Assembly (NCBI GenBank): GCA_035493895.1
Contig: DATJHM010000048.1
Coordinates: forward strand, 725 to 64,724
Source of the DNA: Ktedonobacteraceae bacterium
Lineage (GTDB): Bacteria > Chloroflexota > Ktedonobacteria > Ktedonobacterales > Ktedonobacteraceae
DNA: 64,000 nt
Direction: 5' to 3'
The notes beneath the pieces are model-generated. The model was not told the origin of the DNA and searched no databases. It saw only the letters and a list, made by a program, of their open reading frames with translations. Shown in pieces: positions 2,250 through 60,269 of the stretch (positions within the stretch are counted from its first letter, which is position 1; each line of letters opens with the position of its first letter). The translations under genes were made by a program, and so were the position numbers.

Positions 2250-2300
2250 TTGACAACGAATCGTATCTCAACTATATTACGTGCATCGGATTTATCCGAT
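2250..2300 (+). promoter_or_regulatory. Cassette 1 promoter plus 5' leader hairpin
   Basis: TTGACA (2250-2255), a 17-nt spacer and TATATT (2273-2278). The hairpin ATCGGA-TTTA-TCCGAT (2285-2300) starts 7 nt after the -10. The same layout occurs in 5 copies. Confidence 0.7.
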
Positions 2301-2304
2301 CAGC

Positions 2305-2377
2305 TCAGGCGTAGCTCAGATGGTAGAGTGTCTGCCTGTCACGCAGAAAGTCGCAGGTTCGAATCCTGCCGCCCTGA
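2305..2377 (+). tRNA. tRNA-like module 1 of cassette 1 (Asp-type GUC anticodon arm, non-canonical acceptor)
   Basis: D arm TAGCTCAGATGGTAGAGT, anticodon arm TCTGC-CTGTCAC-GCAGA (identical to bacterial tRNA-Asp) and T arm GCAGG-TTCGAAT-CCTGC. The acceptor strands TCAGGCG / CGCCCTGA pair only with a bulged C, and the helix extends into leader and trailer. Confidence 0.55.
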
Positions 2378-2386
2378 ACTGTCGGT

Positions 2387-2460
2387 GGGGGCGTGGTGCA
2401 GCGTAAGCATTGTACCTCCAACTTGTACAGGACGCCGGGTTGAACTCCTGGCCGCCTCCA
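2387..2460 (+). ncRNA. tRNA-like module 2 of cassette 1 (Ala-type acceptor G3:U70/A73, 9-nt anticodon loop CTCCAACTT)
   Basis: Invariant GGGGGCGTGGTGCAGCG ... CGCCTCCA. T arm GCCGGG-TTGAACT-CCTGGC (6 bp) and anticodon arm TGTAC-CTCCAACTT-GTACA. Confidence 0.55.
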
Positions 2461-2525
2461 CATCCTGTCCTATCCCCTGGTCTGCGTTGAAGCGATTAGT
2501 ATCTGAGAGATAGATAGATATAAGT

Positions 2526-4487
2526 ATGCCCGATGAGATAGTATCACCGGCTCTTTTCACGGAAGCCGCCAACATGGATACGTTCCCGGCGCGGCTCACT
2601 GCTCTGGCGCGTTTTGCTGCCCTCCAACCCCTGATCGCGGCGAACCCGGCAACGCCGCCCACAACCTTAGAGCAGCTCAGTACGTCCACCGATCCTGGCA
2701 TACGGCGCGCAGTGGCTCAGAATCCCAATGCATCCGTACAGACGTTGTGCCGTCTGGCAGGCGAATTTCCCCAGGAATTTTTGCACAATCCCATTATTCC
2801 CCTCCTGAGCATGACCCGGCCTGCCTTTGTCAAAGATCTTCCTCTCCTTTCCTGGGCAAGCCTGCTCAGATTCGAAAATCTCTCTCGCTCGTGGCTGCAA
2901 CAAATCGTGACGGATAAGAGCTATGAGCGCAATCGGTCTCCTATCTTGCGGCTGGTGCAGTTGCATGTGACCCAGGCAGGCAAAAAGCCCGAAGCATGGC
3001 GATTTGAGGCGACGCACGCGTTGCGGGCATATCGACAAATAGGGAAGTTTCAGCAAACGGTGGGATATCAACCAAAAGCTACTCCCCTTGCTTCCATTCA
3101 TCAACAGGCTGAGATAGATATATTTCTCTTGTTGGCTCTGCTGTGCCCTCAATGTGCCCCGATGTTGAAAGAGCAATGGACCAATGTTGTACACACATCG
3201 CCTGATCGTATCGTGGGCGCGCTATCTTCGTCTCTGGCGATAAGCAGTAAAACGCTGTCTTTGCTCTCGTTTGAACGCAATGTGCCCGTACTCTGCCAGG
3301 TAGCTCGTCATCCGCGCACACCCGCGAATGTTCTGGTGCACCTCGCAGGTCGTCGTCTTTCATGGGAAGTGCGGTGCGCCGTCGCCAGCAATCCGCATAC
3401 TCCATTGGAGAATGTCTATCGGCTGCTGTCTGACAGCAAGCGTGTGGTGCGCCGGGCTGCTGTCTCGCATCCCGCTCTCACGCAACAGGACTACGAAATT
3501 CTTGCTCTCGATCAGGAGACCTCAGTACGTGCTGCTCTTGCCAGAGTGCCCCGGATCGGACTCGATTTGTTGAGCCAGCTGGCCCGTGACCCCGCGCCAG
3601 CCGTACGAGCCGCCGTTGCCCGCAATGTGAAAATCAACGTGGAGACTCTTACCACATTAGCACATGATCCCGAGCCAGTAGTGCGCGCTGCGGCCGCCGC
3701 CAACTCGCGTCTTCCGGGCGAGATACAGAGCATGCTGGCTACCGATCCTGAAGTTGCTGTGCGCGCCGGAGTGAGCGGGAATGCACGTTTACCTGAGTCG
3801 TGCTTTGCCGTGCTCGTGCAAGATCCCTCGCCGCTCGTGCGTAAACAGCTCGCCGCCAATTCGCGCCTGCCCGTCCAGCATCTCGAAACACTCTGGCGAA
3901 CGGGCAATGCGGAGGTCTGGCAGGGGGTCGCACGCCATCCTCAGACCGCTCCAGAACTGCTGACACAACTGGCGCAACAGGGCGATGCACGTGTGCGCGC
4001 AGCCGTTGCCGCTCACAGGCAGACGCCGCTCGAAGTGCTCTATGCCCTGGAGCAGGAAAATGTACGCGAGATCTGGCAGGGTCTGGCTATGAACCCGAAC
4101 GCGCCGCTTGACATCCTGGAACGTGCGCTTGCTACACCGTATACCGATCTCTGGTATCGCCTCTTCAACCATCCGACGATGCTGCGCAATCAGCGTCGTC
4201 CCTATCTCACGCTGCTCGCGAGCAAGCTCCAGCAACTTATGGTTGCAAACAGCTTTCCGAACTGGCTGCGAAAAGTCGTATTCCAATATTACACCTCATT
4301 TCCCGCAACCATCATGGAGCCGTTTGCTAGCTCTCCTCACTGGGAAGAGCGCTACCTTGCAGCTCGCCATCCGCAAATAGCAGAATCGCTCCTTGATACA
4401 CTTGCTCACGATGGCATCTGTTATGTCCAGGCCGGTGCACAGGACGCATTGCAACAGCGCAAACTCTCTCATAATCTGAAGCATTGA
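2526..4487 (+). CDS. leucine-rich-repeat-variant (LRV) / HEAT-like repeat protein
   Basis: 653 aa with many roughly 24-aa repeats of the form LAxDPxPxVRxAVAxNxxxP (for example LARDPAPAVRAAVARNV, LAHDPEPVVRAAAAANSRLP, LATDPEVAVRAGVSGNARLP). ATG at 2526. The TGA stop lies inside the next cassette's -35. Confidence 0.8.
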   Translation: MPDEIVSPALFTEAANMDTFPARLTALARFAALQPLIAANPATPPTTLEQLSTSTDPGIRRAVAQNPNASVQTLCRLAGEFPQEFLHNPIIPLLSMTRPAFVKDLPLLSWASLLRFENLSRSWLQQIVTDKSYERNRSPILRLVQLHVTQAGKKPEAWRFEATHALRAYRQIGKFQQTVGYQPKATPLASIHQQAEIDIFLLLALLCPQCAPMLKEQWTNVVHTSPDRIVGALSSSLAISSKTLSLLSFERNVPVLCQVARHPRTPANVLVHLAGRRLSWEVRCAVASNPHTPLENVYRLLSDSKRVVRRAAVSHPALTQQDYEILALDQETSVRAALARVPRIGLDLLSQLARDPAPAVRAAVARNVKINVETLTTLAHDPEPVVRAAAAANSRLPGEIQSMLATDPEVAVRAGVSGNARLPESCFAVLVQDPSPLVRKQLAANSRLPVQHLETLWRTGNAEVWQGVARHPQTAPELLTQLAQQGDARVRAAVAAHRQTPLEVLYALEQENVREIWQGLAMNPNAPLDILERALATPYTDLWYRLFNHPTMLRNQRRPYLTLLASKLQQLMVANSFPNWLRKVVFQYYTSFPATIMEPFASSPHWEERYLAARHPQIAESLLDTLAHDGICYVQAGAQDALQQRKLSHNLKH

Positions 4488-4534
4488 CAGCGAATGTGCT
4501 CTCGATTATAGTAATGCCATCGACTTTGTTCGAT
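4484..4534 (+). promoter_or_regulatory. Cassette 2 promoter plus 5' leader hairpin
   Basis: TTGACA (4484-4489, overlapping the stop codon at 4485-4487), a 17-nt spacer, TATAGT (4507-4512) and the hairpin ATCGA-CTTTGT-TCGAT (4519-4534). Confidence 0.65.
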
Positions 4535-4538
4535 CGGT

Positions 4539-4611
4539 GCGGGTGTAGCTCAGATGGTAGAGCATTGGTTGGCTAAACCGAAGATTGCAGGTTCGAGTCC
4601 TGCCCACTCTG
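4539..4611 (+). ncRNA. tRNA-like module 1 of cassette 2 (GCU in anticodon position, short variable loop, no U33)
   Basis: D arm TAGCTCAGATGGTAGAGC, anticodon arm TTGGT-TGGCTAA-ACCGA and T arm GCAGG-TTCGAGT-CCTGC. The acceptor region pairs only as a bulged extended helix (GGTGCGGGTG with CACTC-T-GCGC). Confidence 0.5.
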
Positions 4612-4620
4612 CGCTGTTGT

Positions 4621-4692
4621 GGGGGCGTGGTGCAGCGGCAGCATCGTGCACGCAAAGCACGGGAGGCCGGGTTCGATCCCCGGTCGCCTCCA
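4621..4692 (+). tRNA. tRNA-like module 2 of cassette 2 (Ala-type acceptor, GCA in anticodon position, 7-nt loop ACGCAAA)
   Basis: This is the only copy with a 5-bp anticodon stem (CGTGC/GCACG) and a 7-nt loop. Position 33 is C, not U. Acceptor GGGGGCG/CGCCTCC plus A73, and T arm GCCGGG-TTCGATC-CCCGGT. Confidence 0.55.
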
Positions 4693-4727
4693 CATTCTTC
4701 CTATTCTCCCCCTTTTTTTGCCCCGTT

Positions 4728-4757
4728 TTGGGATAGAGACGTTCGTTTTGGTATGAT
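4728..4757 (+). promoter_or_regulatory. Possible secondary promoter upstream of the kinase gene
   Basis: TTGGGA (4728-4733), an 18-nt spacer and TGG-TATGAT (extended -10, 4749-4757). Confidence 0.3.
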
Positions 4758-4933
4758 AGAGATGGGTCTCAGAGGGACTTTTTCGTCTCTCGCCCGTATA
4801 TCATAAAGATGACCTATCGTTGGCTCGATAGTGTGCACATTCAACCCCGCAACAATACGTATGCTCTTTCCGTTTGTTCGCTGTTGCTGAAAATGGAAAG
4901 AGGAATGGCAAAAAATCTCTGGAGAGGCTGCAT

Positions 4934-6952
4934 ATGGTTGATTACATAGGACGACAGCTTGGCAATTATCGCCTTACCCGTCTTTTAGGCAAAGGCAGTT
5001 TTGCGCAGGTCTATCTTGGGGAGCATATCTATCTTGGTACTCCGGCGGCGATGAAGGTGCTCAGCACGCAGATGGCGGACGATCTGGATGTGTTTCGCAC
5101 AGAAGCTCGTACTATCGCTCGTCTGATTCATCCCAATATTGTGCGCGTGCTGGAATTTGGCGTGGAAGGCACCATTCCGTTTCTGGTGCTGGACTATGCG
5201 CCCAATGGAACGCTTCGTCAGTACTACCCCAAAGGCGTGCCTCTCCCCTTGCCAACGGTGGTCTCCTATGTGAAACAGATCGCTGAGGCATTAGCGTATG
5301 CCCACGGTGAAAAGTTGATTCACCGGGATGTGAAGCCGGAAAATATCCTCCTGGGAAGAAATAACGAGTTGCTTCTGAGCGACTTTGGGATCGCTCTGAT
5401 GGCGCAGACGATGCACGATCAGAATATGCAGAATGTGGCGGGTACGCTGGCCTATATGGCCCCTGAACAAATCCAGGGCAATCCGCGTCAGGCCAGCGAT
5501 CAGTATTCATTGGGCATCATTGTCTATGAGTGGCTGACTGGCGAACGTCCCTTCAATGGCTCGTTCAACGAGATAATCTCGCAGCAGCTCTCTGTTCTCC
5601 CTCGTCCCTTGCGCGCAAAGGTTCCGACGATTGCCCCGGCCGTTGAACAGGTGGTGTTGATGGCCCTGGAGAAGAATCCTGATCGACGCTTTAACAACAT
5701 CCGCGCATTTGCCTTTGCCCTGGAGCTGGCGAGCCAGCTCAATGCGTCTGCCTCTGACGTCGCCGGTAAGCCTGCCGGAGTTGGCGAGATCTCCCCCTCC
5801 TTCAGCAAGCCCCAGGGCGATGAAAGAGCCGCGATTGCGCCGACGATTCTCCCATCTCCAGCGCCTGTATCGCCAGCAAACAATGCCGCGCCTCCGACGA
5901 TCCTTCCACCCCCTGAACTCCTATCGCCAGCGAAAAGTGAAGGCCCTGTTGTGCGCCCTGTCGCACCCCCGCCATCAGTACCCACGCCGCAAACAAAACC
6001 CGCGGGAACGCTCGTCTCCAGTTATCAGGGACATCCGAACGAAGTATGTTCTTTATCGTGGTTCTCCGGTGGCGTGCGCATTGTGTCGGTAAGCAATGAT
6101 AAAAGTGTGCATGTCTGGGATGCTATGACGGGCAAGCAGTTCCAGATCTACCAGGATATCGCTGATGCCGTGGGTGTCATCGCAGGCTCACCTGATGGCT
6201 CACGTATTGCCACTGCCGGATCTGATGCCCAGGTGCGGATCTGGGATTTTGCCACGAATCGTCTGGTAACCACATATCGTGGTCATGTCGGAAGCACCAT
6301 TAACGCAATCGCCTGGTCGCCAACGCAGCAGCAGCTCGCTTCCGCCGCTGCTGACGGCACCGTACACGTCTGGGATGCGACGACGGGGCAGACGCTCACC
6401 ATCTATCGTGGTCATACCGGCAGCGTCAATATGCTGGCGTGGTCGCCCGATGATCCTTCGTCGGCGCGTATCGTTTCCGGTGGCGACGATGCGTCAGTGC
6501 AGACCTGGAATGCCTCCACTGGCAGAAGTATTGCGCTCCACCGCAGCCAGGGGGCGAAGGTCATGAGTGTCGCATGGTCGCCGGAGGTATATCCCATGTC
6601 TCTCCAGACGAGCTACTCGGCAAGCATGCCCACGAAGGTTCCCAATAGTGCCCGGGTCGCGTGCGGGAGAGCAGACGGAACGGTACAGATGTGGGATACC
6701 ACCACAGATCGCGAAGTATTAAGCTACCGCTACAATGCCCCTCTCTCCGTCGTCGCATGGTCGCCGGATGGGAGGCGTTTCGCCTATGCCAGCGAAAACA
6801 AGACAGTAGAGGTGTGGGACACCATGACGAATCTCAAACTGGTAACCTTCTCCCATGCCGCTCCAACCCGCGTCATGGCCTGGTCCCCCGACGGAAAATA
6901 CATTGCCTCTGGCGGTGGCGATGCAACGATACAAGTCTGGGTTGCCCCATAA
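4934..6952 (+). CDS. Ser/Thr protein kinase with C-terminal WD40 beta-propeller
   Basis: Kinase motifs GKGSFAQV, HRDVKPENILL, DFGIA and APE. A Pro-rich linker is followed by at least 7 WD repeats (VHVWDA, VRIWDF, VQTWNA, VQMWDT, VEVWDT, IQVWV). The ATG at 4934 is preceded by GGAGAGG. The ORF track's TTG at 4874 is less likely. Confidence 0.9.
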   Translation: MVDYIGRQLGNYRLTRLLGKGSFAQVYLGEHIYLGTPAAMKVLSTQMADDLDVFRTEARTIARLIHPNIVRVLEFGVEGTIPFLVLDYAPNGTLRQYYPKGVPLPLPTVVSYVKQIAEALAYAHGEKLIHRDVKPENILLGRNNELLLSDFGIALMAQTMHDQNMQNVAGTLAYMAPEQIQGNPRQASDQYSLGIIVYEWLTGERPFNGSFNEIISQQLSVLPRPLRAKVPTIAPAVEQVVLMALEKNPDRRFNNIRAFAFALELASQLNASASDVAGKPAGVGEISPSFSKPQGDERAAIAPTILPSPAPVSPANNAAPPTILPPPELLSPAKSEGPVVRPVAPPPSVPTPQTKPAGTLVSSYQGHPNEVCSLSWFSGGVRIVSVSNDKSVHVWDAMTGKQFQIYQDIADAVGVIAGSPDGSRIATAGSDAQVRIWDFATNRLVTTYRGHVGSTINAIAWSPTQQQLASAAADGTVHVWDATTGQTLTIYRGHTGSVNMLAWSPDDPSSARIVSGGDDASVQTWNASTGRSIALHRSQGAKVMSVAWSPEVYPMSLQTSYSASMPTKVPNSARVACGRADGTVQMWDTTTDREVLSYRYNAPLSVVAWSPDGRRFAYASENKTVEVWDTMTNLKLVTFSHAAPTRVMAWSPDGKYIASGGGDATIQVWVAP

Positions 6953-6962
6953 GCGCTCATCA

Positions 6963-6996
6963 GTAGGGACGCCATGGAGGCACGGAATGGCGTCCG
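6963..6996. repeat. REP-like element, family a (GTAG head plus hairpin GGACGCCAT...ATGGCGTCC)
   Basis: The 36-mer CAGTAGGGACGCCATGGAGGCACGGAATGGCGTCCG is repeated identically at 27910-27945 and 28686-28721. This copy sits 10 nt after the kinase stop and may double as a terminator. Confidence 0.75.
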
Positions 6997-7079
6997 GGTA
7001 GCCAACGAATTCTCAGGCACCGAAGACGAGAGCAGCAACAAAAAACCAGCCGAATCGCAGCCCAGAAGCCCAATGAGCA

Positions 7080-7130
7080 TTGACAATAAATCTAAACTCA
7101 ACTATATTGCATACATCGGATTCGTTCGAT
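7080..7130 (+). promoter_or_regulatory. Cassette 3 promoter plus 5' leader hairpin
   Basis: TTGACA (7080-7085), a 17-nt spacer, TATATT (7103-7108) and the hairpin ATCGGA-TTCG-TTCGAT (7115-7130). Confidence 0.7.
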
Positions 7131-7134
7131 CGGC

Positions 7135-7208
7135 GCAGGTGTAGCGTAGTGGCCTAACGCAGCTGTATATCCCGCAGGAGATCTCAGGTTCGAATCCTGT
7201 CGCCTGTG
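7135..7208 (+). ncRNA. tRNA-like module 1 of cassette 3 (AUC in anticodon position)
   Basis: Acceptor GCAGGTG/CGCCTGT (two G-U pairs), extended to 11 bp with leader and trailer. D arm GCGT-AGTGGCCTA-ACGC, anticodon loop ATATCCC and T arm (T)CAGG-TTCGAAT-CCTG(T). Confidence 0.5.
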
Positions 7209-7217
7209 TCGCATAGT

Positions 7218-7291
7218 GGGGGCGTGGTGCAGCGTCAACACAGTACATCCAATTGGTACATGACGCCGGGTTCAACTCCCGGTCGCCTCCA
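7218..7291 (+). ncRNA. tRNA-like module 2 of cassette 3 (Ala-type acceptor, 9-nt loop ATCCAATTG)
   Basis: Invariant GGGGGCGTGGTGCAGCG ... CGCCTCCA. Anticodon stem GTAC/GTAC and T arm GCCGGG-TTCAACT-CCCGGT. Confidence 0.55.
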
Positions 7292-7344
7292 CAGTTCATC
7301 CATTGCAAAACTCTCCTCATCGCAGCCCAGAAGCACAACAAGCA

Positions 7345-7395
7345 TTGACAATAAATCTAAACTCAACTATATTGCATACATCGGATTCGTCCGAT
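7345..7395 (+). promoter_or_regulatory. Cassette 4 promoter plus 5' leader hairpin
   Basis: TTGACA (7345-7350), a 17-nt spacer, TATATT (7368-7373) and the hairpin ATCGGA-TTCG-TCCGAT (7380-7395). Confidence 0.7.
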
Positions 7396-7399
7396 CAGC

Positions 7400-7472
7400 A
7401 CAGGAGTAGCGTAGATGGTAGCGCGTCTGCTTTGCACGCAGAAGGTCGCAGGTTCGAGTCCTGTCTCTTCGT
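7400..7472 (+). tRNA. tRNA-like module 1 of cassette 4 (Ala-type UGC anticodon arm, non-canonical acceptor)
   Basis: The anticodon arm TCTGC-TTTGCAC-GCAGA is identical to bacterial tRNA-Ala(UGC). D arm GCGT-AGATGGTA-GCGC and T arm GCAGG-TTCGAGT-CCTGT. The acceptor ACAGGAG / CTCTT-C-GT pairs only with a bulged C and continues 4 more bp. Confidence 0.55.
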
Positions 7473-7481
7473 GCTGTCAGT

Positions 7482-7554
7482 GGGGGCGTGGTGCAGCGTG
7501 AGCATCGTGCAGCCAAAAGCACAGGACATCAGGTTCAACTCCTGGTCGCCTCCA
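7482..7554 (+). ncRNA. tRNA-like module 2 of cassette 4 (Ala-type acceptor, 8-nt loop AGCCAAAA)
   Basis: Invariant GGGGGCGTGGTGCAGCG ... CGCCTCCA. Anticodon stem GTGC/GCAC and T arm ATCAGG-TTCAACT-CCTGGT. Confidence 0.55.
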
Positions 7555-7607
7555 CACTTCATCCACCGCAAAACTCCCCTCGTGCCACCTCAGAAGCGCA
7601 ATGAGCA

Positions 7608-7658
7608 TTGACAACGCTTTTCCCCTCAACTATATTACATGCATCGACTTTGTTCGAT
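7608..7658 (+). promoter_or_regulatory. Cassette 5 promoter plus 5' leader hairpin
   Basis: TTGACA (7608-7613), a 17-nt spacer, TATATT (7631-7636) and the hairpin ATCGA-CTTTGT-TCGAT (7643-7658). Confidence 0.7.
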
Positions 7659-7662
7659 CGGC

Positions 7663-7736
7663 GTGGGAGTAGCTCGGGTGCTAGAGCGCCTCCTTGCCAA
7701 GGAGAGAGGTCGCAGGTTCGAGCCCTGCACACTCAA
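7663..7736 (+). tRNA. tRNA-like module 1 of cassette 5 (Gly-type GCC anticodon arm, degenerate acceptor)
   Basis: The anticodon loop TTGCCAA is identical to bacterial tRNA-Gly(GCC). D arm GCTC-GGGTGCTA-GAGC and T arm GCAGG-TTCGAGC-CCTGC. The 5' GTGGGAG pairs with the trailer only through an internal loop. Confidence 0.5.
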
Positions 7737-7745
7737 CGTCGTCGT

Positions 7746-7818
7746 GGGGGCGTGGTGCAGCGAAAGCATAGTACGCTCATTAGTACAGGACATCAGGTTC
7801 AACTCCTGGTCGCCTCCA
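7746..7818 (+). ncRNA. tRNA-like module 2 of cassette 5 (Ala-type acceptor, 8-nt loop GCTCATTA)
   Basis: Invariant GGGGGCGTGGTGCAGCG ... CGCCTCCA. Anticodon stem GTAC/GTAC and T arm ATCAGG-TTCAACT-CCTGGT. Confidence 0.55.
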
Positions 7819-7916
7819 CATTCACCCGAATATCTTATGGCCATTTATCCCCGCATTCTTGCCAGACCGATCTTGCAGAGATTTCAGCCAATAAAAAAAG
7901 AATTGAGTGGACTATC

Positions 7917-8951
7917 ATGACGCCAGAAGCTCTCTCAAGTTTTTTGCATAAGCTCGTCGAACATCGTCTGATGTTCAGTACTATGATCTGGGGCGCGCCG
8001 GGCATCGGCAAATCGAGCATTGTCGCGCAGACTGCGGCTGCCTACGAGATGGAGATGATCGATCTTCGCCTCTCACAACTGGCCCCGACGGATCTGCGCG
8101 GCTTGCCCGTGGCTGACAATGGTGTCTCGCGCTGGTATCCGCCCGAATTTTTGCCGCGTGAAGGCAAGGGCATTCTCTTTCTCGACGAATTGAATCTCGC
8201 TCCTCCCGCGATGCAGGGGATGGCGCAACAGTTGATTCTGGATCGCCGCGTCGGGAACTATACGGTTCCCCGGGATTGGTTTGTCTGGGCCGCAGGCAAT
8301 CGCAAAGAAGATCGTGCCGCCGTGTTCGACATGCCCGCGCCACTCGCCAACCGCTTCATCCATCTCACGGTCGAGGCGCACTTTGACAGCTTCAAATCCT
8401 ACGCCCTCGGACAGCACATTCACGAGCACATCCTGGCGTTTCTCTCTTTCCGTCCCGCATTGCTACATAAGCTCGATCCACAGCAGCCTGCCTGGCCTTC
8501 GCCTCGCTCGTGGATGATTGCCAATCGTCTATACAAAGTGGGCCTGGATATCTCGCATGTGGTCGGCCAGGGCGTTGCCGCAGAGTTTGCCGCTTTTCTC
8601 AAGCTCTATCAACAGTTGCCCAATGTCACTGAGATTTTGCAGGGAAACGGCGACAAGATTGGCTTCCCCGATGAGCCATCGCAGCGTTACGCCCTGACCG
8701 TTGCTCTGACTATGCGCGCCACTTCTCTGCAAGAAAGCTATCTGGCATTTCAATGGATGGCTGCGCATGCCGGACACGAATGGATACAGCTCTTTGCTAC
8801 CGATCTCTTCCGTCAGGCTCGCGCACGCAACGAACTGGGACGTCTGGCGACACTGGTGCAGCGCGATAAACGCTTACAGCAAATGTTCATTGAATACATG
8901 AAGTTGCTGGAGGAGCCCGACGCGTTGGAGGAAGCCGATGAGCAAGAATGA
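7917..8951 (+). CDS. MoxR-like AAA+ ATPase (AAA_5 type)
   Basis: Walker A GAPGIGKS, Walker B ILFLDELN, and AAGNRKEDRAAVFDMPAPLANRF. The likely start is the ATG at 7917 (MTPEALSS...). The ORF-track start at 7608 reads through cassette 5 and is rejected. Confidence 0.85.
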   Translation: MTPEALSSFLHKLVEHRLMFSTMIWGAPGIGKSSIVAQTAAAYEMEMIDLRLSQLAPTDLRGLPVADNGVSRWYPPEFLPREGKGILFLDELNLAPPAMQGMAQQLILDRRVGNYTVPRDWFVWAAGNRKEDRAAVFDMPAPLANRFIHLTVEAHFDSFKSYALGQHIHEHILAFLSFRPALLHKLDPQQPAWPSPRSWMIANRLYKVGLDISHVVGQGVAAEFAAFLKLYQQLPNVTEILQGNGDKIGFPDEPSQRYALTVALTMRATSLQESYLAFQWMAAHAGHEWIQLFATDLFRQARARNELGRLATLVQRDKRLQQMFIEYMKLLEEPDALEEADEQE

Positions 8952-10068
8952 TGCTTTTCAGCGCCAGATTTCCGCCGCGATCATTCAGTTGCGCCTGCAT
9001 TCGCCGTTCTTTGCAACGCTCGCGCTGTTCGCCAGGATTATTCCCACGCAAAACTATCCCACGGCGGCAACCGATGGACGCGATGTCTTTATCAATCCAG
9101 ATTTCTGGCGCGACCTGACGACCGCTGAGCGCCTGGGCTTGCTCGCTCACGAAGTACTGCACGCCGCGCTCCTCCACGTGCCGCGCCTGGGCCGACGCCA
9201 TCCCTTAACCTGGAATATTGCAGCCGATATTGTGGTCAATGGCATCATTCTTGCTCAGGATGGTTTTGCGCTGCCGAAGGGGCATCTGCGCTATGCGCAG
9301 CTTGAACAACTGAGTGTGGAGGAAATTTATCATCAGATCCAGGCAAATGCCGACGTACGCAAGCTTTTGCTTCCTCTGTTTGCCGATCTGCTGTTGCCCA
9401 CAGAAGGACTCTCTCCCGACCAGTATGCCGAACTTGAGCAGCACTGGAGGCAGGCCTTACGCCAGGCCGAAACGCTGGTCGAAGTGCTGGGACATGGCAC
9501 GCTGCCAGCAGGCTTGCGGCGCGAAATGACCCATCTCAGCCCCTCTCAACTGGATTGGCGAGCCTATCTCTGGCGCTTCCTGGTGCAAACTCCGACCGAT
9601 TTTGAGGGCTTCGATCGTCGCTTTGTGGGTCAGGGACTCTATCTGGACGCGCTCGCGGGGGAGAAACTGCGCGTCTTTGTGGCGGTCGATACCAGCGGCT
9701 CTATTGGCAGTAAAGAGATTGCGCAGTTTCTCGGCGAGGTGCAGGCCATCCTGGGTGCCTATCCACATCTGGAGGCCATCCTCTATTATGCAGATGCTGC
9801 CTGCTATGGTCCCTATGAGCTGACCCCTAACTCAGAGCTTCCCCCTCCGGTGGGTGGCGGCGGCACCGATTTTCGTCCGTTCTTTGCGGCCGTTGAGACG
9901 ACCCTCGATGCTTCGTCTCATGGCATCTGCATCTATCTGACCGATGGCTATGGTACCTTTCCCAGCGTACCACCCTCATTGCCCGTGCTCTGGGTCCTCT
10001 CTCCCGGCGGGATAAGCATCGAATATGTGCCATTTGGGGAAGCGGTACGCCTGATTCCCGACGTGTGA
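8938..10068 (+). CDS. vWA-like domain protein with N-terminal HExxH metallopeptidase-like domain (DUF2201-type partner of MoxR ATPases)
   Basis: HEVLH zinc-binding motif and a MIDAS-like VAVDTSGSI. The start overlaps the ATPase stop by 14 nt, which suggests an operon. Confidence 0.8.
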   Translation: MSKNDAFQRQISAAIIQLRLHSPFFATLALFARIIPTQNYPTAATDGRDVFINPDFWRDLTTAERLGLLAHEVLHAALLHVPRLGRRHPLTWNIAADIVVNGIILAQDGFALPKGHLRYAQLEQLSVEEIYHQIQANADVRKLLLPLFADLLLPTEGLSPDQYAELEQHWRQALRQAETLVEVLGHGTLPAGLRREMTHLSPSQLDWRAYLWRFLVQTPTDFEGFDRRFVGQGLYLDALAGEKLRVFVAVDTSGSIGSKEIAQFLGEVQAILGAYPHLEAILYYADAACYGPYELTPNSELPPPVGGGGTDFRPFFAAVETTLDASSHGICIYLTDGYGTFPSVPPSLPVLWVLSPGGISIEYVPFGEAVRLIPDV

Positions 10069-11284: not shown

Positions 11285-14200
11285 ATGTTATCGTGCTGGA
11301 ACTGCCACGCGGTATTACCAGAGGGAGCAAAATTTTGTGGACGCTGTGGAAATAAACAAGACACGGCAGCGTCTGTTCTACCATCTTCTCTTCTTACCGT
11401 TCCCCACTCTACTCAACTTGTAGCAACGGACCTTGTGCATCATGATCAACCTGTCGCAACGGACCTGCATCATGATCACTCTGCCGCTCCCACTTTTACC
11501 ATCTACTCGGCCGTTTTGCCGATCAAAACCTGGCTTGCAGAACATCGCGCGACCATTGCCGCAAAACTTTTGACGGTCCTTGTGTATGTCAATACCAGGC
11601 GCAATGAAAACAGAGAGCTTTTTGAAACCAATAGCGGAAGAGAAACTCCTCCGCTCGAAGATCGTTCCTGGGACAAAGTTGCCTTTATTGCCGGGCTGTA
11701 TGCTCGCTTTATGTGGCGCTATGAGTTGAACGCCGAACAGAAACGCAATCTCTGGGATGCCTTGTGCTGGTCCGTGCTCTATGAACGAGCTTTGCGCCCG
11801 AAGATGGCTGATGCCCGCTTTGCCGAACTGGTTGGCTTTTTTAATGGCTGCGCCGGGGATAGCGAATTCTTCGCCTATATGCTCCTGAGCATGCCGCTCT
11901 TACTTGAATATGTTGATACTTCCAATATCCACAAACTCCTGACCGCCAGTGAACGTCTGGGCAACTCATCGGATGTCGTGCATCTGCGCGCATTACTTCA
12001 CCAACGCCTCGTTATGCCTGCCGATGTGGATCTGGAGTCAACTCAATTGACGGTGCTGGCCGATCAGCCCGGCCCGAGACGTGAGTGGGCGCGTATCATT
12101 CTGGCTATTGAACATCTCTGGCAGTTTTTAGACAAAAAACGCGAGAGCAGTAATCAGCGCGCGCTGACCTTTGCCCGCGAAAATCCCATGGACTCGACCA
12201 CTCCTTCGCAACTGGCAACGCTGGGCGGGGTGATTTGTCGCAATGTCGTCTTTCGCTATGCTCACAATAGTACGTTACCTGGCAGCATGCTGACTGCTGA
12301 ACAATTGGCGGACGCCATCGCGCTGGCGGAATACTCGATACGCTATAGTTCAGGTGATTATATTGGTAAGGCCGAATATTATTATCTGCTCTTGAGCAGC
12401 TTACGCGATCTGCGGACACATGTACTCTCGGCCGATGTGCTCGTGAGCGCGCTGAAACGCCAGTTCGCACCCGAGGGATTGGCCCGAATATCGGAATTCT
12501 CCTGGTCCGATCTCCTCGGCATCGTGACGCGCTACCTGAGCGAGTGTCGTCTGGCGGAAACCATTGATGTGGTGGAGGTGGAGTCCTGGATACGCGCTCT
12601 GGCTGATCTTGCTCCTCAGTTTCAACTGGAGGCGCGCAAGGTGTTTGTGAGTGAGGTGCGCCAGCATGGCGTGCGCGACAGTATGGCTTTGCGTGCTTTG
12701 CAGGGCGAGTCATTGGAAATGGTCAGTGAAACACATGACAGGGGGCCACTGGCGTTTCTCGGACAGGAGCGCTACAAAGAGCTGCTGACCTGTATTCGTA
12801 CCTCTCGTCTGGATCGTCTGGGCGAAATTCTGCGTGAGGCGCGCCCGAAACTTTTCGCCGAACTGAGCCGTCTATTGACCGATCAGAAGTTTGCGGAGAT
12901 TCTCCCGCCCCGACGCTCATTGCGCATACGTGGTCGCAATGCCAATGCTCTCGATCGCTTTCAGGAGGCAAAAACGCTTATTCAGAGCGAGAATGTCGCC
13001 GAGCAACAGGAGGGACTTGCTCTCTTCGAGCGAGCTCAGGCTGATACTGCCCGCGAATATCAGCCCGTTGCACGCGAATGGCGTCTGTTCGCGATTGCCT
13101 GCGTCCGGGCGCGCTATCAGGCGGTCCCGCTGTGGGAAGAGGATCGCTGCAAGGGCGTTGCGTCCTGGGAGGAGATCTGGAATCTGGCCGTCTTCTATGT
13201 TCATGTTGGCAAGATCGATCAGGCGTTGGAATTGCTGGTGCCCGGCGTTGAGCGGCAGCGAGCCCCTTTCTCGCATCTGCGTTTTGCCCTCTATTGCAGC
13301 GTGCAGATTCTCGGACAGGGGTCACATTCGCAACACGAGAGCATCGAAGCCGCCGAAACGTTTCTTATGGAGCATCTGAAACAGTATCCCTTGCCGGAAT
13401 GCTATCTGGCATGGTCTTTATTGGTCAGTGAACGCGAGAGTGTTGATCGAGCGCAAAGTACAAACAATATGATGAAGCAACTGACGATCCTGACCAAATT
13501 TAACGAGTTGCTTGACCATCCCATCCTTATCCTGAAGCCAGAGGAGTCGGTCAGCGATTCTGCCCTGGAGACATTTGAAAAAGAACTCCGTCGCCTCGAT
13601 CTGGACGATGTCTGGCGTTTCTGGATTCACGACTATGCCCAACGCAACCGCTATAAATTCAGTGCCTGGCAGGCGCTGAGCGATGCGTACGAGCGCGCGG
13701 GCGAAAGTACCGGAGCTGAAAAGTCCCTGAAACATGTTGCAGATACGCAGCTTGATATGTATCTGAAGCAGCGCGAGAAAAGTAGTGCTGTTGTCTCTAA
13801 TCTGCTGCATCTGCGCAATCATCTATGTAAGTTGTTCGATTTTTATCAACGTCAGGGCCGTTTATTGGACGATGATGTCTTTGCCCGCTTTAAGCACTAT
13901 CGCACGACTGTCCCCGAACTATGGCATGAACGGGAGAGTGCGAATACGAAGTTGATCAAGCAGACACGTCCTCTGCTGGAGAAACTGGGGCGAACAGGCA
14001 GCACAAACGAGTCTTCTGCAACTCAAGCCCCACAGAAAGCCTGGTATGCGCTCGCTTCGGAGCTTACGACTGTCCAGGAAATCGCCACTCTGAAGAGCTT
14101 GCAGGCGCGCATACATACCCATGTCCATCTTCTGACGGATGCGCAAAAGCAGGGTCAGGACGATGTTGCGGGCGTCCTATCGCTGCTGGATGATCTCTGC

Positions 14201-49857: not shown

Positions 49858-51210
49858 TTAATACGTTTTTCGTTTCGTCCAGGCCTCAACGGCTTTGCGA
49901 CGAGCGGCTGGATTGCGTTCGGGTCGACTGTCATCAATGGAGGAAAGCAGATTGCCCAGTGTGATCAGACTGTCCAGATTGTGCGAGGGCAGAAAATTAT
50001 CAATAAAAGGTAATGCTGTTTTCATGCCAATAGTTAATGGACGATAGTCGGGCGAGCCGAGCAGTGGATTGAGCCAGATCAGGCGATGGCTGCTATGCTG
50101 CAACCGGTCCATCTCGGCGCTCAGCACATCGGCATCGCCGCGATCCCAGCCGTCACTGATCAGCAGCACCACCGCGCCCCGTCCAAGCACGCGGCGCGAC
50201 CATTTATTATTGAAGTAGTGCAGAGCATCGCCGATACGCGTGCCACCGGACCAGTCCTGCACCGATTTCGAGACATCGCGAACCGCATCATCGACATCGC
50301 GCTTTTTCAGTTGACGTGTGATGCGCGTCAGGCGCGTCCCGAAGACGAATGTCTCCACGTTCAGCAAGCCATTCGAAATGGTATGCACAAAATGGAGCAG
50401 GAGCCGGGAATAGAGGCTCATCGAGCCGCTGATATCGCAAATGATGACGAGTGGGCGTGGCTTATAGCGTGTTTTGCGCCAGCTCAATTCGATAAATTCG
50501 GCACCGTATTTCAGATTGCGTCGTATGATGCGGCGCATATCGGGATACGAGCCGTTGCGGGCGGGCGATTTGCGCCGTGTCGGGCGCATGCCGAGATTCC
50601 AGTGCATCTCCGCCATGAGCCTTTTGGCTTCCTGCACCTCATCCCAGGTGAAATTCTCGAAATCTTTCTTACGCAGTTGTTCGATGGCGGTAAAGGCCGT
50701 TCCCTGAGCGTCGCCATCGTCTTCGTTCGCCTTGTCATCGCGTTTCCCCTTGCGCATGAGACGATCTGTATGATGCATCTCGAGGCGAGGATCACGGCGG
50801 GACTCGTTCGAATTCATGTGCTCGGCCAGCCGCTTCCGCTCAGAAGGAGGGAGGCGTATCTGTCGTTCATCGCGGCGAGCCGGACCTGATTTGCCCTTTG
50901 TATCCTTGCCCTGGCGATCGCGCAGATACCAGTAATAGAGATACAACTGATCAAAGAGCGCTTCCTGCTCATGGCGTGTCAGCAGACTGCACTTGAGCGC
51001 ATTGTAGAAGTCCTCTTTATTCTTCGGATCGATATAGCGCAGCGTCTCCGTGAGGTCCAGCATCTGGCGTGGTCCCACGTGAACGCCAGCCTCCCAGAGA
51101 ATATGCCCAAATTCGGTTAAGCGATACAGCAGGCGTTCGCCACGTTCAATATCGATAGGGCGCATCTCAAGAGGGCCGTCGCTATTCTGTTGTGGTGAGG
51201 GCATCGTCAT
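49858..51210 (-). CDS. vWA domain protein, CoxE-like
   Basis: The N-terminus LTEFGHILWEAGVHVGPRQMLDL is CoxE-like. The MIDAS motif is VIICDISGSMS. Confidence 0.8.
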   Translation of the reverse strand: MTMPSPQQNSDGPLEMRPIDIERGERLLYRLTEFGHILWEAGVHVGPRQMLDLTETLRYIDPKNKEDFYNALKCSLLTRHEQEALFDQLYLYYWYLRDRQGKDTKGKSGPARRDERQIRLPPSERKRLAEHMNSNESRRDPRLEMHHTDRLMRKGKRDDKANEDDGDAQGTAFTAIEQLRKKDFENFTWDEVQEAKRLMAEMHWNLGMRPTRRKSPARNGSYPDMRRIIRRNLKYGAEFIELSWRKTRYKPRPLVIICDISGSMSLYSRLLLHFVHTISNGLLNVETFVFGTRLTRITRQLKKRDVDDAVRDVSKSVQDWSGGTRIGDALHYFNNKWSRRVLGRGAVVLLISDGWDRGDADVLSAEMDRLQHSSHRLIWLNPLLGSPDYRPLTIGMKTALPFIDNFLPSHNLDSLITLGNLLSSIDDSRPERNPAARRKAVEAWTKRKTY

Positions 51211-51216
51211 ACGCGT

Positions 51217-60130: not shown

Positions 60131-60269
60131 ACTTGGAAGAGGATGGACCAAAAAGGGAAGAAGGCAGCGGTTTCTGTATACATTGTTATGGTATGATATG
60201 TGCTGGAGGAAATATAAAAAAGATCCTCTCTGGCCTTCTTTACGATGGAGAAACGGCAAGGAGCATATC

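What the first reader, a model, noticed from the sequence alone, without database searches (positions are those of the whole stretch)
2305..7736. Module 1 has tRNA D, anticodon and T arms, but the acceptor is replaced by a long bulged leader-trailer helix
Module-1 copies lie at 2305-2377, 4539-4611, 7135-7208, 7400-7472 and 7663-7736.

All have canonical D arms (TAGCTCAGATGGTAGAG-type) and T arms (GCAGG-TTCGA(A/G)T-CCTG(C/T)). Three have anticodon loops identical to standard bacterial tRNAs: CTGTCAC (Asp GUC), TTTGCAC (Ala UGC) and TTGCCAA (Gly GCC). The other two are irregular: TGGCTAA, and ATATCCC with A34.

None starts with the usual G1-type 7-bp acceptor. Instead, the 11 nt before position 8 pair with the 12-13 nt after the T stem.
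- Copy 1: 4 bp, bulged C, 3 bp, mismatch, 3 bp.
- Copy 2: two bulges.
- Copy 3: 11 continuous bp.
- Copy 4: 5 bp, bulged C, 6 bp.
- Copy 5: 3 bp, internal loop, 6 bp.

The outer 6 bp differ in sequence between copies yet remain complementary (CAGCTC/GAACTG, CGGCGC/GTGTCG with G-U pairs, CAGCAC/GTGCTG, CGGCGT/ACGTCG). A tRNA-like body mounted on a long bulged 5'/3' stem recalls bacterial Y-RNA-like (YrlA) RNAs. No Ro/TROVE gene is visible here.
Basis: partly seen in the sequence, partly recalled or inferred. Interest (0 to 1): 0.8.

Follow-up and report, generated by a model that had tools for sequence, protein, structure and literature searches.

The report
Sealed-end tRNA mimics beside a conserved operon
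Five copies of a two-part tRNA look-alike gene, whose amino-acid-accepting ends are locked into long double helices, always sit next to the same set of uncharacterised protein genes in two bacterial phyla, which suggests a new kind of non-coding RNA partner for those proteins, not ordinary tRNAs.

Summary
All five module-1 copies are tRNA-like (Rfam tRNA 33-59 bits). In each, the 7-bp acceptor stem with a free 3' end is replaced by a 10-12-bp, often bulged, leader-trailer helix.

Across 20-23 units from ten Ktedonobacteria loci this helix covaries strongly: 7 of 9 outer pairs show compensatory changes. Cognate strands pair at -13.0 kcal/mol against -7.7 for non-cognate strands.

Module 1 is half of a ~210-bp unit:
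- a near-consensus sigma-70 promoter;
- a 5' hairpin that abuts the helix;
- module 1;
- a 2-5-nt linker;
- module 2, a tRNA-Asp-derived mimic with a 9-bp closing helix, a 6-bp T stem and G3:U70.

Units found by RNA sequence alone always flank an LRV-repeat protein, a MoxR-type AAA+ ATPase and a DUF2201 metallopeptidase-vWA protein. Usually they also follow an unusual Zn-ribbon SDR. Filamentous cyanobacteria carry tRNA-like dimers directly downstream of the orthologous SDR.

In both phyla only the module-1 anticodon arm is hypervariable.

It is not YrlA: there is no Ro/TROVE gene, no Y-RNA match, and the topology differs.

Best reading: a new tRNA-mimic non-coding RNA that works with these proteins. 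The function is inferred, not shown.

The parts
2250..2278 (+). Unit 1 promoter (TTGACA-17-TATATT)
   Evidence: matches 11 of 12 consensus positions. Conserved in all 24 units.
2285..2300 (+). Unit 1 5' leader hairpin (ATCGGA-TTTA-TCCGAT), directly abutting the outer helix
   Evidence: The stem covaries between loci (ATCGGA, AGCGGA, GCCGGA, ACCAGT).
2301..2381 (+). Unit 1 module 1. Outer-helix 5' strand is 2301-2311; the tRNA-like body has an Asp-type GUC loop; outer-helix 3' strand is 2370-2381.
   Evidence: 58.7 bits; R1 94.9 bits.
2385..2461 (+). Unit 1 module 2 (GTGGGGGCG...CGCCTCCAC): 9-bp closing helix, 6-bp T stem, G3:U70, 9-nt 'anticodon' loop
4484..4512 (+). Unit 2 promoter (TTGACA-17-TATAGT)
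4519..4616 (+). Unit 2 leader hairpin (4519-4534) plus module 1. Helix strands are 4535-4545 and 4604-4616; the loop is TGGCTAA.
   Evidence: (42.2 bits).
4619..4693 (+). Unit 2 module 2 (ARAGORN calls it 'tRNA-Cys' GCA)
7080..7108 (+). Unit 3 promoter
7115..7211 (+). Unit 3 leader hairpin (7115-7130) plus module 1. Helix strands are 7131-7141 and 7201-7211, giving 11 continuous bp; the loop is ATATCCC.
   Evidence: (41.6 bits).
7216..7292 (+). Unit 3 module 2
7345..7373 (+). Unit 4 promoter
7380..7476 (+). Unit 4 leader hairpin (7380-7395) plus module 1. Helix strands are 7396-7406 and 7465-7476, giving 5 bp, a bulged C, then 6 bp. The anticodon arm is Ala-type UGC.
   Evidence: (53.4 bits).
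7480..7555 (+). Unit 4 module 2
7608..7636 (+). Unit 5 promoter
7643..7741 (+). Unit 5 leader hairpin (7643-7658) plus module 1. Helix strands are 7659-7669 and 7729-7741; the loop is Gly-type GCC.
   Evidence: (33.2 bits).
7744..7819 (+). Unit 5 module 2
   Evidence: (30.9 bits).
2526..4487 (+). LRV/HEAT-like repeat protein (653 aa, pI 9.5), flanked by units in every Ktedonobacteria locus
7917..8951 (+). AAA_5 (MoxR/midasin-like) ATPase, a conserved neighbour (74-87% identity in Ktedonobacteria, about 65% to cyanobacteria)
8938..10068 (+). DUF2201 protein (N-terminal putative metallopeptidase plus vWA-like domain), a conserved neighbour

Best explanation
Each unit is a gene for a non-decoding tRNA mimic.

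Inferred transcript. A strong sigma-70 promoter starts transcription about 6-7 nt after the -10 box. The transcript opens with a short 5' hairpin that stacks directly on a 10-12-bp helix. That helix closes a complete D/anticodon/T cloverleaf (module 1). After 2-5 nt comes a second, tRNA-Asp-derived cloverleaf (module 2). Module 2 is closed by a 9-bp helix and has a 6-bp T stem.

Shown: this anatomy and its conservation.

Inferred consequences. In both domains the nucleotides that would be the free 5' end and the 3' NCCA tail are base-paired. The RNA therefore keeps the tRNA elbow and, in module 1, a genuine-looking anticodon arm. It should be a poor substrate for RNase P, aminoacyl-tRNA synthetases, EF-Tu and the ribosome.

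Proposed role (inferred). The RNA acts as the RNA subunit of the proteins it is always encoded with, as scaffold, decoy or specificity element. Those proteins are a basic LRV/HEAT-like solenoid, a MoxR-type AAA+ ATPase, a metallopeptidase-vWA protein and a Zn-ribbon SDR with an altered active site. The constant scaffold would be the protein-binding part. The hypervariable module-1 anticodon arm makes each copy imitate a different cellular tRNA: Asp, Ala, Gly, Met, Cys, Glu and others. The analogy is Ro60 with Y RNA.
For: Anatomy:
- Five units share promoter, hairpin, module 1 and module 2.
- Whole-unit folds give hairpin, closed cloverleaf, closed cloverleaf, with z = -2.2 and -2.6.
- The module-1 outer helix covaries: 7 of 9 pairs, 93% paired, 0 of 500 shuffles. 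Cognate strands pair specifically, 0 of 20,000 permutations.
- The module-2 closing helix is 9 bp. Pair -1:73 reads UA 20, CG 3; pair -2:74 reads GC 19, AU 2, CG 1, GU 1. The sixth T-stem pair reads AU 11, GC 8, GU 5.
- Ordinary tRNA-Asp genes lack such extensions.

Conserved context:
- Loci found by RNA sequence alone (L008, L062, L122-L126) all carry LRV, AAA_5 and DUF2201 wherever the fetched stretch or contig reaches them.
- Loci found through DUF2201 in K. racemifer, K. rubrisoli and strain brp13 also carry the units.
- The special SDR lies directly upstream of the units in six Ktedonobacteria loci.
- The orthologous SDR lies directly upstream of tRNA-like dimers in 4 of 4 cyanobacteria examined: Tolypothrix, Oscillatoria, Microcoleus and Calothrix.

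Variable cassette: the module-1 anticodon arm has flank-level identity (0.35-0.37), while the rest is conserved (0.7-0.95 in cyanobacteria).

Other support:
- Pairing of leader with the 3' end that extends the acceptor stem inhibits bacterial RNase P (PMC9433436, listed).
- LRV proteins next to the RNA are basic (pI 9.0-9.5). The LRV of an RNA-less locus has pI 6.2.
Against: - There are no expression, end-mapping or binding data, so the transcript limits and the absence of processing are inferred.
- No clear terminator follows the units. They may be co-transcribed with the downstream genes.
- Three LRV-AAA_5-DUF2201 loci (L131-L133) and the Sorangium SDR locus (L134) have no detectable tRNA-like RNA. 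The proteins therefore do not strictly need it.
- This window lacks the SDR next to the units.
- In cyanobacteria module 1 has a normal 7-bp acceptor stem, often followed by ACCA. Sealing of the end is therefore not a universal feature of the wider family.
- AAA_5 and DUF2201 are very conserved, which fits a housekeeping machine better than an arms-race decoy system.
Confidence: 0.5

Rival explanations
1. They are precursors of real, chargeable tRNA-like molecules. RNase P or Z and exonucleases would cut inside or next to the extended helices, and CCA would be added. The products would be aminoacylated: module 2 by AlaRS through G3:U70/A73, and module 1 perhaps by anticodon-reading synthetases. 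They would then be used for a specialised purpose such as non-ribosomal aminoacyl transfer or deliberate recoding.
For: - Module 2 keeps G3:U70 in 23 of 24 copies while pairs 5:68-7:66 covary, and position 73 is A in most copies.
- Relative to the parental tRNA-Asp, the G.U has moved from 4:69 to 3:70 and G73 has become A73.
- Module-1 anticodon loops look like real 7-nt loops, mostly with U33 and a purine at position 37.
- Cyanobacterial module 1 has a normal acceptor stem plus ACCA abutting module 2.
- M. smegmatis YrlA shows that a tRNA-like non-coding RNA can be cut by RNase P and receive CCA (PMC4201824).
Against: - Four of the five window module-1 copies have bulges or mismatches within the first 7 bp.
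- Acceptor sequences do not match the identity sets expected for their anticodons. In cyanobacteria one scaffold carries Glu, Met, Ser, Gly and Val anticodons.
- Module-2 'anticodon' loops are 7-9 nt, and the arm is deleted altogether in L062 and L123 copies.
- After canonical trimming, a 7/6 module 2 would have a 13-bp acceptor-T stack with no known decoding counterpart.
- T loops in the cyanobacterial copies lack C56 or U55.
- No Fem, CDPS, LanB or PEARL-type aminoacyl-tRNA-using enzyme was found among the 30 window ORFs scanned with Pfam or in the precomputed Pfam annotations of the gene calls in the loci fetched with gene tables.
Confidence: 0.2
2. They are cis-acting parts of the operon mRNAs. 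In Ktedonobacteria they would be tRNA-like 5' leaders; in cyanobacteria, 3' trailers. They would act as processing punctuation, stabilisers or regulators of the LRV/AAA+/vWA/SDR messages, and not as trans-acting RNAs.
For: - Units are always on the same strand as, and 60-100 nt upstream of, LRV or AAA_5.
- The unit promoters are the only strong promoter matches in the region, and no terminator follows them.
- In Oscillatoria the first dimer starts 6 nt after the SDR stop codon, and in Tolypothrix a terminator follows the last dimer.
Against: - Up to three or four units occur in tandem, each with its own promoter.
- A T-rich tract often follows module 2; K. racemifer has T7 directly after the helix.
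- A hypervariable anticodon arm on an otherwise constant scaffold is hard to explain for a mere processing signal.
- Co-transcription and a trans-acting role are not mutually exclusive.
Confidence: 0.15
3. They are Y-RNA-like (YrlA-type) partners of a Ro60/Rsr protein.
For: - A tRNA-like body sits on a long, often bulged 5'/3' helix.
- There are several copies next to a vWA-domain protein and a helical-repeat protein. Together these loosely recall the two domains of Ro60, the vWA domain and the HEAT-like TROVE ring (from my own knowledge).
Against: - No TROVE domain appears in any ORF of 440 aa or more in the window.
- No TROVE hit appears in the Pfam lists of the gene calls in the related loci fetched with gene tables.
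- No Y-RNA or YrlA-type Rfam match at E<=5.
- The topology is the opposite of YrlA, whose acceptor-like stem is loop-closed and whose ends lie at the anticodon side (PMC4201824).
Confidence: 0.03
4. They are decaying tRNA pseudogenes or a locally amplified repeat with no function.
For: - Some copies are degenerate. L123_1265 and L126_9684 lack a D arm, Osc_c lacks an anticodon stem, and window unit 3 has an odd loop.
Against: - Compensatory changes maintain four or five helices, including the non-tRNA outer helix.
- Near-consensus promoters are kept in 24 of 24 units.
- The same architecture and synteny occur in at least six named Ktedonobacteria genera/strains and, in modified form, in four cyanobacterial genera.
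Confidence: 0.03

Closest known systems
Bacterial Y RNAs of the YrlA type (Ro60/Rsr partners)
   Same: - A tRNA-derived non-coding RNA that keeps D and T arms.
- Encoded in one to several copies next to the genes of its presumed protein partners.
- Carries a long terminal helix, and most are not aminoacylated.
   Different: - No rsr/TROVE gene, and no GNCGAAN0-1G/Ro-binding module.
- The RNA ends lie at the acceptor side, not the anticodon side.
- A complete anticodon arm is present and hypervariable.
- Two tRNA-like domains per transcript.
- The partners are LRV, MoxR-AAA+, vWA-peptidase and SDR.
Ordinary tRNA genes and pre-tRNAs, including tandem tRNA genes
   Same: - Cloverleaf with canonical D and T loops.
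- Real-looking anticodon loops.
- Detected by ARAGORN and Rfam tRNA.
- Module 2 clearly derives from Chloroflexota tRNA-Asp.
   Different: - The acceptor stem is replaced by a 9-12-bp helix with no free NCCA.
- There are bulges within the first 7 bp.
- Module 2 has a 6-bp T stem and 7-9-nt or missing anticodon loops.
- Each dimer has its own promoter and a 5' hairpin.
- Synteny with a protein operon is fixed.
tmRNA tRNA-like domain
   Same: Module 2 has G3:U70 with A73, a reduced D loop without GG, and in some copies no anticodon arm. This is the same set of features that lets AlaRS charge tmRNA.
   Different: - No mRNA-like tag region (ARAGORN finds no tmRNA).
- The end is extended by two or more further base pairs.
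- About 75 nt long.
tRNA-Sec and allo-tRNAs (8/5, 9/4, 8/4, 9/3 structures)
   Same: Longer-than-normal acceptor or T helices in a tRNA frame.
   Different: - Here the stacks are 15-17 bp (10-12/5 and 9/6) against 12-13 bp.
- No long variable arm.
- Rfam tRNA-Sec scores 17.5 bits against a threshold of 47.
tRNA-like RNA linked to SPFH/Band-7 genes in RtcB RNA-repair operons (Burroughs and Aravind 2016; recalled from memory, not read here)
   Same: A tRNA-like non-coding RNA predicted from conserved linkage to a scaffold-type protein in an operon.
   Different: Different proteins, with no RtcB or Band-7 here, and a different RNA architecture. I could not retrieve that paper to compare sequences.
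MoxR AAA+ with metallopeptidase-vWA pair noted in jumbo phages (PMC7824862)
   Same: The same protein pair (AAA_5 plus DUF2201-type peptidase-vWA), predicted to act as chaperone and co-chaperone.
   Different: No RNA partner was described. The phage homologs are only 25-35% identical. No copies of the RNA were found in viral contigs.

Membership tests
Canonical tRNA | Cloverleaf with D, anticodon and T arms and conserved tertiary nucleotides (U8, A14, G18G19, T54-psi55-C56) | tested here: met
   Module 1 scores 33-59 bits on Rfam tRNA. The D, anticodon and T helices covary. GG is present in the D loop and TTCGA in the T loop.
Canonical tRNA | 7-bp acceptor stem ending in an unpaired discriminator and 3' tail; leader not paired with trailer | tested here: not met
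   The closing helix is 10-12 bp and runs through positions -1 to -4 and 73-76. Bulges or mismatches fall inside the first 7 bp in 4 of 5 window copies. Control tRNA-Asp genes show 0.7 extra pairs on average.
Canonical tRNA | Aminoacylation and use in translation | not testable with these tools
   This needs tRNA-seq or charging assays.
YrlA / bacterial Y RNA | Encoded adjacent to a Ro60 (rsr, TROVE domain) gene | tested here: not met
   No TROVE hit in any ORF of 440 aa or more in the window. No TROVE hit in the gene tables of the related loci either.
YrlA / bacterial Y RNA | Ro-binding helix with the GNCGAAN0-1G motif; acceptor-like stem closed by a loop; RNA ends on the anticodon side (PMC4201824) | tested here: not met
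   The ends are at the acceptor side and a full anticodon arm is present. No Rfam match other than tRNA-type models at E<=5.
tmRNA | tRNA-Ala-like acceptor (G3:U70) together with an internal tag-encoding reading frame | tested here: not met
   G3:U70 is present in module 2. ARAGORN finds no tmRNA or tag peptide, and tmRNA_permuted scores 13 bits against a threshold of 47.
tRNA-Sec / allo-tRNA | 12-13-bp acceptor plus T stack in 8/5, 9/4, 8/4 or 9/3 form, with a long variable arm | tested here: not met
   The stacks are 10-12/5 and 9/6, and the variable region is 4-5 nt. tRNA-Sec scores 17.5 bits against 47.
Proposed new family: LRV/MoxR/vWA/SDR-linked tRNA-mimic dimers | Two tandem tRNA-like domains on one strand, 0-5 nt apart, next to the Zn-ribbon SDR and/or the AAA_5-DUF2201 pair | tested here: met
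   Seen in ten Ktedonobacteria loci and four cyanobacterial loci.
Proposed new family: LRV/MoxR/vWA/SDR-linked tRNA-mimic dimers | Constant scaffold with a hypervariable module-1 anticodon arm | tested here: met
   Mean pairwise identity is 0.35-0.37 in the anticodon arm, against 0.7-0.95 for the T arm, acceptor and module 2.
Proposed new family: LRV/MoxR/vWA/SDR-linked tRNA-mimic dimers | Physical association of the RNA with the neighbouring proteins | not testable with these tools
   This needs pull-down or CLIP experiments.

The most novel reading that the evidence does not exclude
These RNAs are the programmable RNA subunits of a previously unrecognised ribonucleoprotein machine found in large-genome, multicellular bacteria (Ktedonobacteria and filamentous cyanobacteria).

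A constant two-domain tRNA-mimic scaffold would be held by a Zn-ribbon SDR and a solenoid protein, and remodelled by a MoxR AAA+/vWA-metallopeptidase pair. An exchangeable anticodon arm would let each copy impersonate one cellular tRNA. Possible uses are to bait, sense or titrate factors that act on specific tRNA anticodon loops, such as anticodon nucleases, modification enzymes or synthetases.
Probability: 0.3. Interest if true: 0.85.

Novelty: new variant of a known kind. Interest (0 to 1): 0.75.

Why it matters
tRNA mimicry by non-coding RNAs is known from only a few systems: tmRNA, YrlA/Y RNA, viral tRNA-like structures and mascRNA.

This appears to be a further, structurally distinct case with clear comparative support:
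- a two-domain mimic with sealed acceptor ends;
- its own strong promoters;
- a hypervariable anticodon cassette;
- fixed linkage to four uncharacterised but highly conserved protein families (LRV solenoid, MoxR AAA+, DUF2201 peptidase-vWA, Zn-ribbon SDR) across two phyla.

It gives an experimental handle on DUF2201/MoxR pairs, which are widespread (more than 5,700 homologs found, including in phages) and have no known substrate.

It is also a warning for annotation. ARAGORN and the Rfam tRNA model call these elements tRNA-Asp, Ala, Gly, Ser, Cys, Met and Glu. tRNA gene counts and codon-usage inferences in these genomes may therefore be inflated.

Tried and rejected
1. The genome-contig scan with the 17-mer GGGGGCGTGGTGCAGCG was too unspecific. 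Eleven were ordinary Chloroflexota tRNA-Asp genes, later reused as controls. The rest were chance hits in GC-rich genomes.
2. PADLOC and NCBIfam gave no matches for LRV, AAA_5, DUF2201 or the NYN-STAND protein, so the cluster is not a catalogued defence system.
3. PDB sequence searches gave only midasin (weak) for AAA_5, the 1LRV repeat for LRV, and nothing for DUF2201.
4. An AlphaFold model of the SDR (pLDDT 85) searched with Foldseek against PDB returned only generic SDRs. The ~100-aa insert is partly disordered and gave no clue to function.
5. Viral contig scans with the Ktedonobacteria and cyanobacterial motifs gave nothing real. L137 is a chance hit inside a coding region.
6. Phage DUF2201 homologs are only 25-35% identical and were not pursued.
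7. The STK-WD40 gene between units 2 and 3 and the 1714-aa NYN-STAND gene downstream were considered as partners. They are not conserved neighbours.
8. Literature searches found no description of these RNAs. Search terms covered Ktedonobacter with tRNA-like, DUF2201, TROVE/MoxR, SDR with tRNA-like in cyanobacteria, extended acceptor stems and RNA repair.
9. The R1 covariance model found no divergent copies in the RNA-less loci L131-L134.

Full report
**1. The observation**

ARAGORN and the Rfam tRNA model place tRNA-like elements at 2305-2377, 4540-4612, 7134-7210, 7400-7472 and 7664-7737. The Rfam scores are 58.7, 42.2, 41.6, 53.4 and 33.2 bits.

There are two trivial deviations: TCAGG in copy 3 and TTCGAGC in copy 5.

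In every copy the 11 nt before U8 pair with the 11-13 nt after the T stem.

**2. The element is larger than the finding**

Alignment of the five regions shows a ~210-bp unit made of:
- a near-consensus promoter, TTGACA-17 nt-TATA(T/G)T. These are the five best promoter matches in the region, each 11 of 12;
- a 6-nt spacer;
- a 16-nt hairpin;
- module 1;
- a 2-5-nt linker;
- module 2, GTGGGGGCGTGGTGCAGCG...CGCCTCCAC, which is invariant at its 5' end in all five copies.

MFE folds put the hairpin directly against the long helix, with no unpaired nucleotide between them. They fold each module as a cloverleaf closed by an extended helix. The whole-unit z-scores are -2.2 and -2.6.

**3. Relatives**

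A genome scan with a 17-mer was mostly noise, but it found the same unit in Dictyobacter aurantiacus (L008) and Ktedonospora formicarum (L062). A tighter pattern found six soil-metagenome contigs.

An nhmmer profile then detected 27 unit matches (24 of them non-redundant) in the window, L008, L062, L121-L126, L128 and L130. Two more were found in strain brp13. All 24 non-redundant units keep the promoter.

**4. Is the long helix selected?**

*Module 1.*
- On a MAFFT alignment of 20 well-formed module-1 copies, RNAalifold predicts a 9-bp outer helix in addition to the D, anticodon and T stems.
- Pair counting on that alignment gives 93.3% of cells paired in the outer helix, with compensatory double changes at 7 of 9 pairs. 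Examples are CG 8/UA 7/UG 4 at one pair and AU 9/GC 7 at another.
- For the whole structure, 0 of 500 shuffles reach the observed values, and the paired fraction collapses to 37-48% when the 3' strand is slid by 1-3 columns.
- An independent test compared each 5' strand with its own 3' strand and with those of the other units. Cognate pairs give -13.0 kcal/mol and non-cognate pairs -7.7. For the outer 6 nt alone the values are -4.1 and -1.4. In both cases 0 of 20,000 permutations reach the observed value.

*Module 2*.
- Its closing helix is likewise extended to 9 bp. Pair -1:73 reads UA 20, CG 3. Pair -2:74 reads GC 19, AU 2, CG 1, GU 1.
- It has a sixth T-stem pair that covaries (AU 11, GC 8, GU 5).
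- It keeps G3:U70 in 23 of 24 copies.

*Control.* Eleven ordinary Chloroflexota tRNA-Asp genes share the first 17 nt of module 2 and are evidently its ancestor. They show only 0.7 consecutive pairs beyond 1:72 on average, against 2.3 for module 2.

**5. Context**

tblastn of the window's proteins against the RNA-defined loci shows that the units always flank the same genes:
- an LRV/HEAT-like repeat protein (36-58% identity);
- an AAA_5 MoxR/midasin-like ATPase (74-87%);
- a DUF2201 protein, made of a putative metallopeptidase and a vWA-like domain (65-79%).

The arrangements include:
- unit(s)-LRV-unit(s)-AAA_5-DUF2201 in L125, L126, L062, L130 and the window;
- four units-LRV-AAA_5-DUF2201 in L123.

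Looking up DUF2201 homologs gave the same arrangement in Ktedonobacter racemifer, Ktedonosporobacter rubrisoli and strain brp13.

These loci also show an SDR directly upstream of the first unit. It has three unusual features:
- an N-terminal Cys4 zinc ribbon;
- a ~100-aa insert;
- an invariant HPHTNMAK motif in place of YxxxK.

This SDR is not next to the units in the present window.

**6. Beyond Chloroflexota**

The DUF2201 ortholog of the cyanobacterium Tolypothrix (56% identity) lies in the order AAA_5, DUF2201, pentapeptide-repeat protein, SDR. Two tRNA-like dimers and a terminator follow. Calothrix has the same layout with three dimers.

Oscillatoria and Microcoleus have pentapeptide protein, SDR, then three dimers or one dimer, without AAA_5/DUF2201 nearby.

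The cyanobacterial dimers are highly conserved. Module 1 has a normal 7-bp acceptor, GGCAGYG/CRCTGCC, followed by ACCA or AACT and then module 2. Both T loops are non-canonical: one lacks C56 and the other lacks U55.

In both phyla the only hypervariable segment is the module-1 anticodon arm. Its pairwise identity is 0.35-0.37, equal to the flanks. The T arm, the acceptor and module 2 score 0.7-0.95.

The loops mimic many different tRNAs, including Asp GUC, Ala UGC, Gly GCC, Met CAU, Cys GCA, Glu UUC/CUC, Arg GCG, Val UAC and Ser GCU. Orthologous positions do not keep the same loop.

**7. Limits of the association**

- Three LRV-AAA_5-DUF2201 loci without the SDR (L131-L133) contain no detectable tRNA-like RNA.
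- A Sorangium SDR locus (L134) also contains none.
- This holds for ARAGORN, Rfam and my covariance model R1.
- The tightest linkage is therefore between the RNA and the SDR (10 of 11 SDR loci).
- The Ktedonobacteria-specific sealed helix goes with the LRV protein.
- LRV proteins next to the RNA are basic (pI 9.0-9.5), while the LRV of RNA-less L132 has pI 6.2. The sample is small.

**8. What it is not**

- *Not YrlA.* There is no TROVE protein among all large ORFs. No Y-RNA-type Rfam match appears at E<=5. The topology is opposite to YrlA (PMC4201824).
- *Not tmRNA.* ARAGORN finds no tag region.
- *Not tRNA-Sec or allo-tRNA.* There is no long variable arm, the helix stacks are 15-17 bp, and tRNA-Sec scores 17.5 bits against a threshold of 47.
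- *Not phage-borne*.
- *Not a catalogued defence system*.
- No paper in the searchable library describes it. The MoxR plus peptidase-vWA pair has been noted in jumbo phages as a predicted chaperone pair, without an RNA (PMC7824862).

**9. Mechanism**

*Shown:*
- the anatomy;
- the covariation;
- the promoters, by consensus only;
- the synteny across two phyla;
- the variable anticodon cassette.

*Inferred:*
- Each unit yields a stable RNA that begins at the hairpin.
- Its sealed ends keep it out of RNase P processing, charging and decoding. Leader/3' pairing that extends the acceptor stem is known to inhibit RNase P (PMC9433436, listed).
- It serves as scaffold, decoy or specificity subunit for the co-encoded proteins, in the manner of Y RNA with Ro60.

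I give this reading 0.5.

*Rivals:*
- Processed, chargeable tRNA-like molecules, 0.2. This is supported by G3:U70/A73 in module 2 and by the normal acceptor plus ACCA in cyanobacteria.
- Cis-acting leader or trailer elements of the operon mRNAs, 0.15. This is supported by the same-strand position and the lack of terminators.
- True Y RNAs, 0.03.
- Pseudogenes, 0.03.

**10. Verdict**

The finding is genuine and unusual. Its YrlA analogy holds only at the level of a 'tRNA-mimic RNA with a protein partner'.

Together with module 2 and the conserved operon, this looks like an undescribed family of tRNA-mimic non-coding RNAs. I class it as a new variant of a known kind, with interest 0.75.

Noticed in passing
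window 2385-2461, 4619-4693, 7216-7292, 7480-7555, 7744-7819: Module 2 derives from Chloroflexota tRNA-Asp(GUC): the first 17 nt are identical and one D-loop G is deleted. The G.U pair has moved from 4:69 to 3:70 and G73 has become A73, which is the AlaRS identity set. The T stem is 6 bp and the 'anticodon' loops are 7-9 nt. In L062 (6119-5907) and three L123 copies the anticodon arm is deleted or shortened.
   Followed up: partly
L062 3126-3336 (- strand): A HEARO RNA (Rfam RF02033, 96 bits) lies between a tRNA-like unit and the AAA_5 gene in Ktedonospora formicarum. It is probably an IS200/605-type (IsrB-like) element that inserted into the cluster.
   Followed up: no
L138 (Ktedonobacteria bacterium brp13, AP024096.1 1-16717): The SDR, two units, LRV, AAA_5 and DUF2201 lie within 17 kb of the end of the 8.9-Mb record. 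Three ResT/TelK telomere-resolvase-like genes flank the locus, which hints at a linear replicon end.
   Followed up: no
window 4874-6952: A Ser/Thr kinase-WD40 gene sits between units 2 and 3. It is not a conserved neighbour in any related locus, so it looks like an insertion into the cluster.
   Followed up: partly
window 11285-16429: A 1714-aa protein with an N-terminal zinc ribbon, a STAND-type ATPase region and a C-terminal NYN (RNase) domain lies 1.2 kb downstream of DUF2201. It is not conserved next to the cluster elsewhere and has no PADLOC or NCBIfam match.
   Followed up: partly
L127 12407-13660; L130 4635-6389; alignment A4: The SDR linked to the RNA dimers has an N-terminal CxxC...CxxC zinc ribbon and a ~100-aa, partly disordered insert. 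An invariant HPHTNMAK motif replaces the catalytic YxxxK tyrosine. Homologs occur in filamentous cyanobacteria, Ktedonobacteria and Sorangium.
   Followed up: partly
window 2526-4487; L128 7075-8985; L130 6672-8648; L138 7038-8969; L132 7007-8977: LRV proteins encoded next to the RNA units are basic (pI 9.0-9.5). The LRV protein of the RNA-less locus L132 has pI 6.2.
   Followed up: partly
window 49858-52113: A second, unrelated MoxR-type pair: a VWA_CoxE protein at 49858-51210 next to an unscanned 298-aa ORF at 51217-52113.
   Followed up: no
window 59919-62195: An eCIS core domain protein (PF13699).
   Followed up: no
L124 (metagenome contig Ga0310811_10084830): The PBP and the first 347 residues of the LRV protein are 100% identical to the window's, and the unit 1 match scores the same as the window's. 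The source organism, or a very close relative, is therefore present in that JGI soil metagenome.
   Followed up: no
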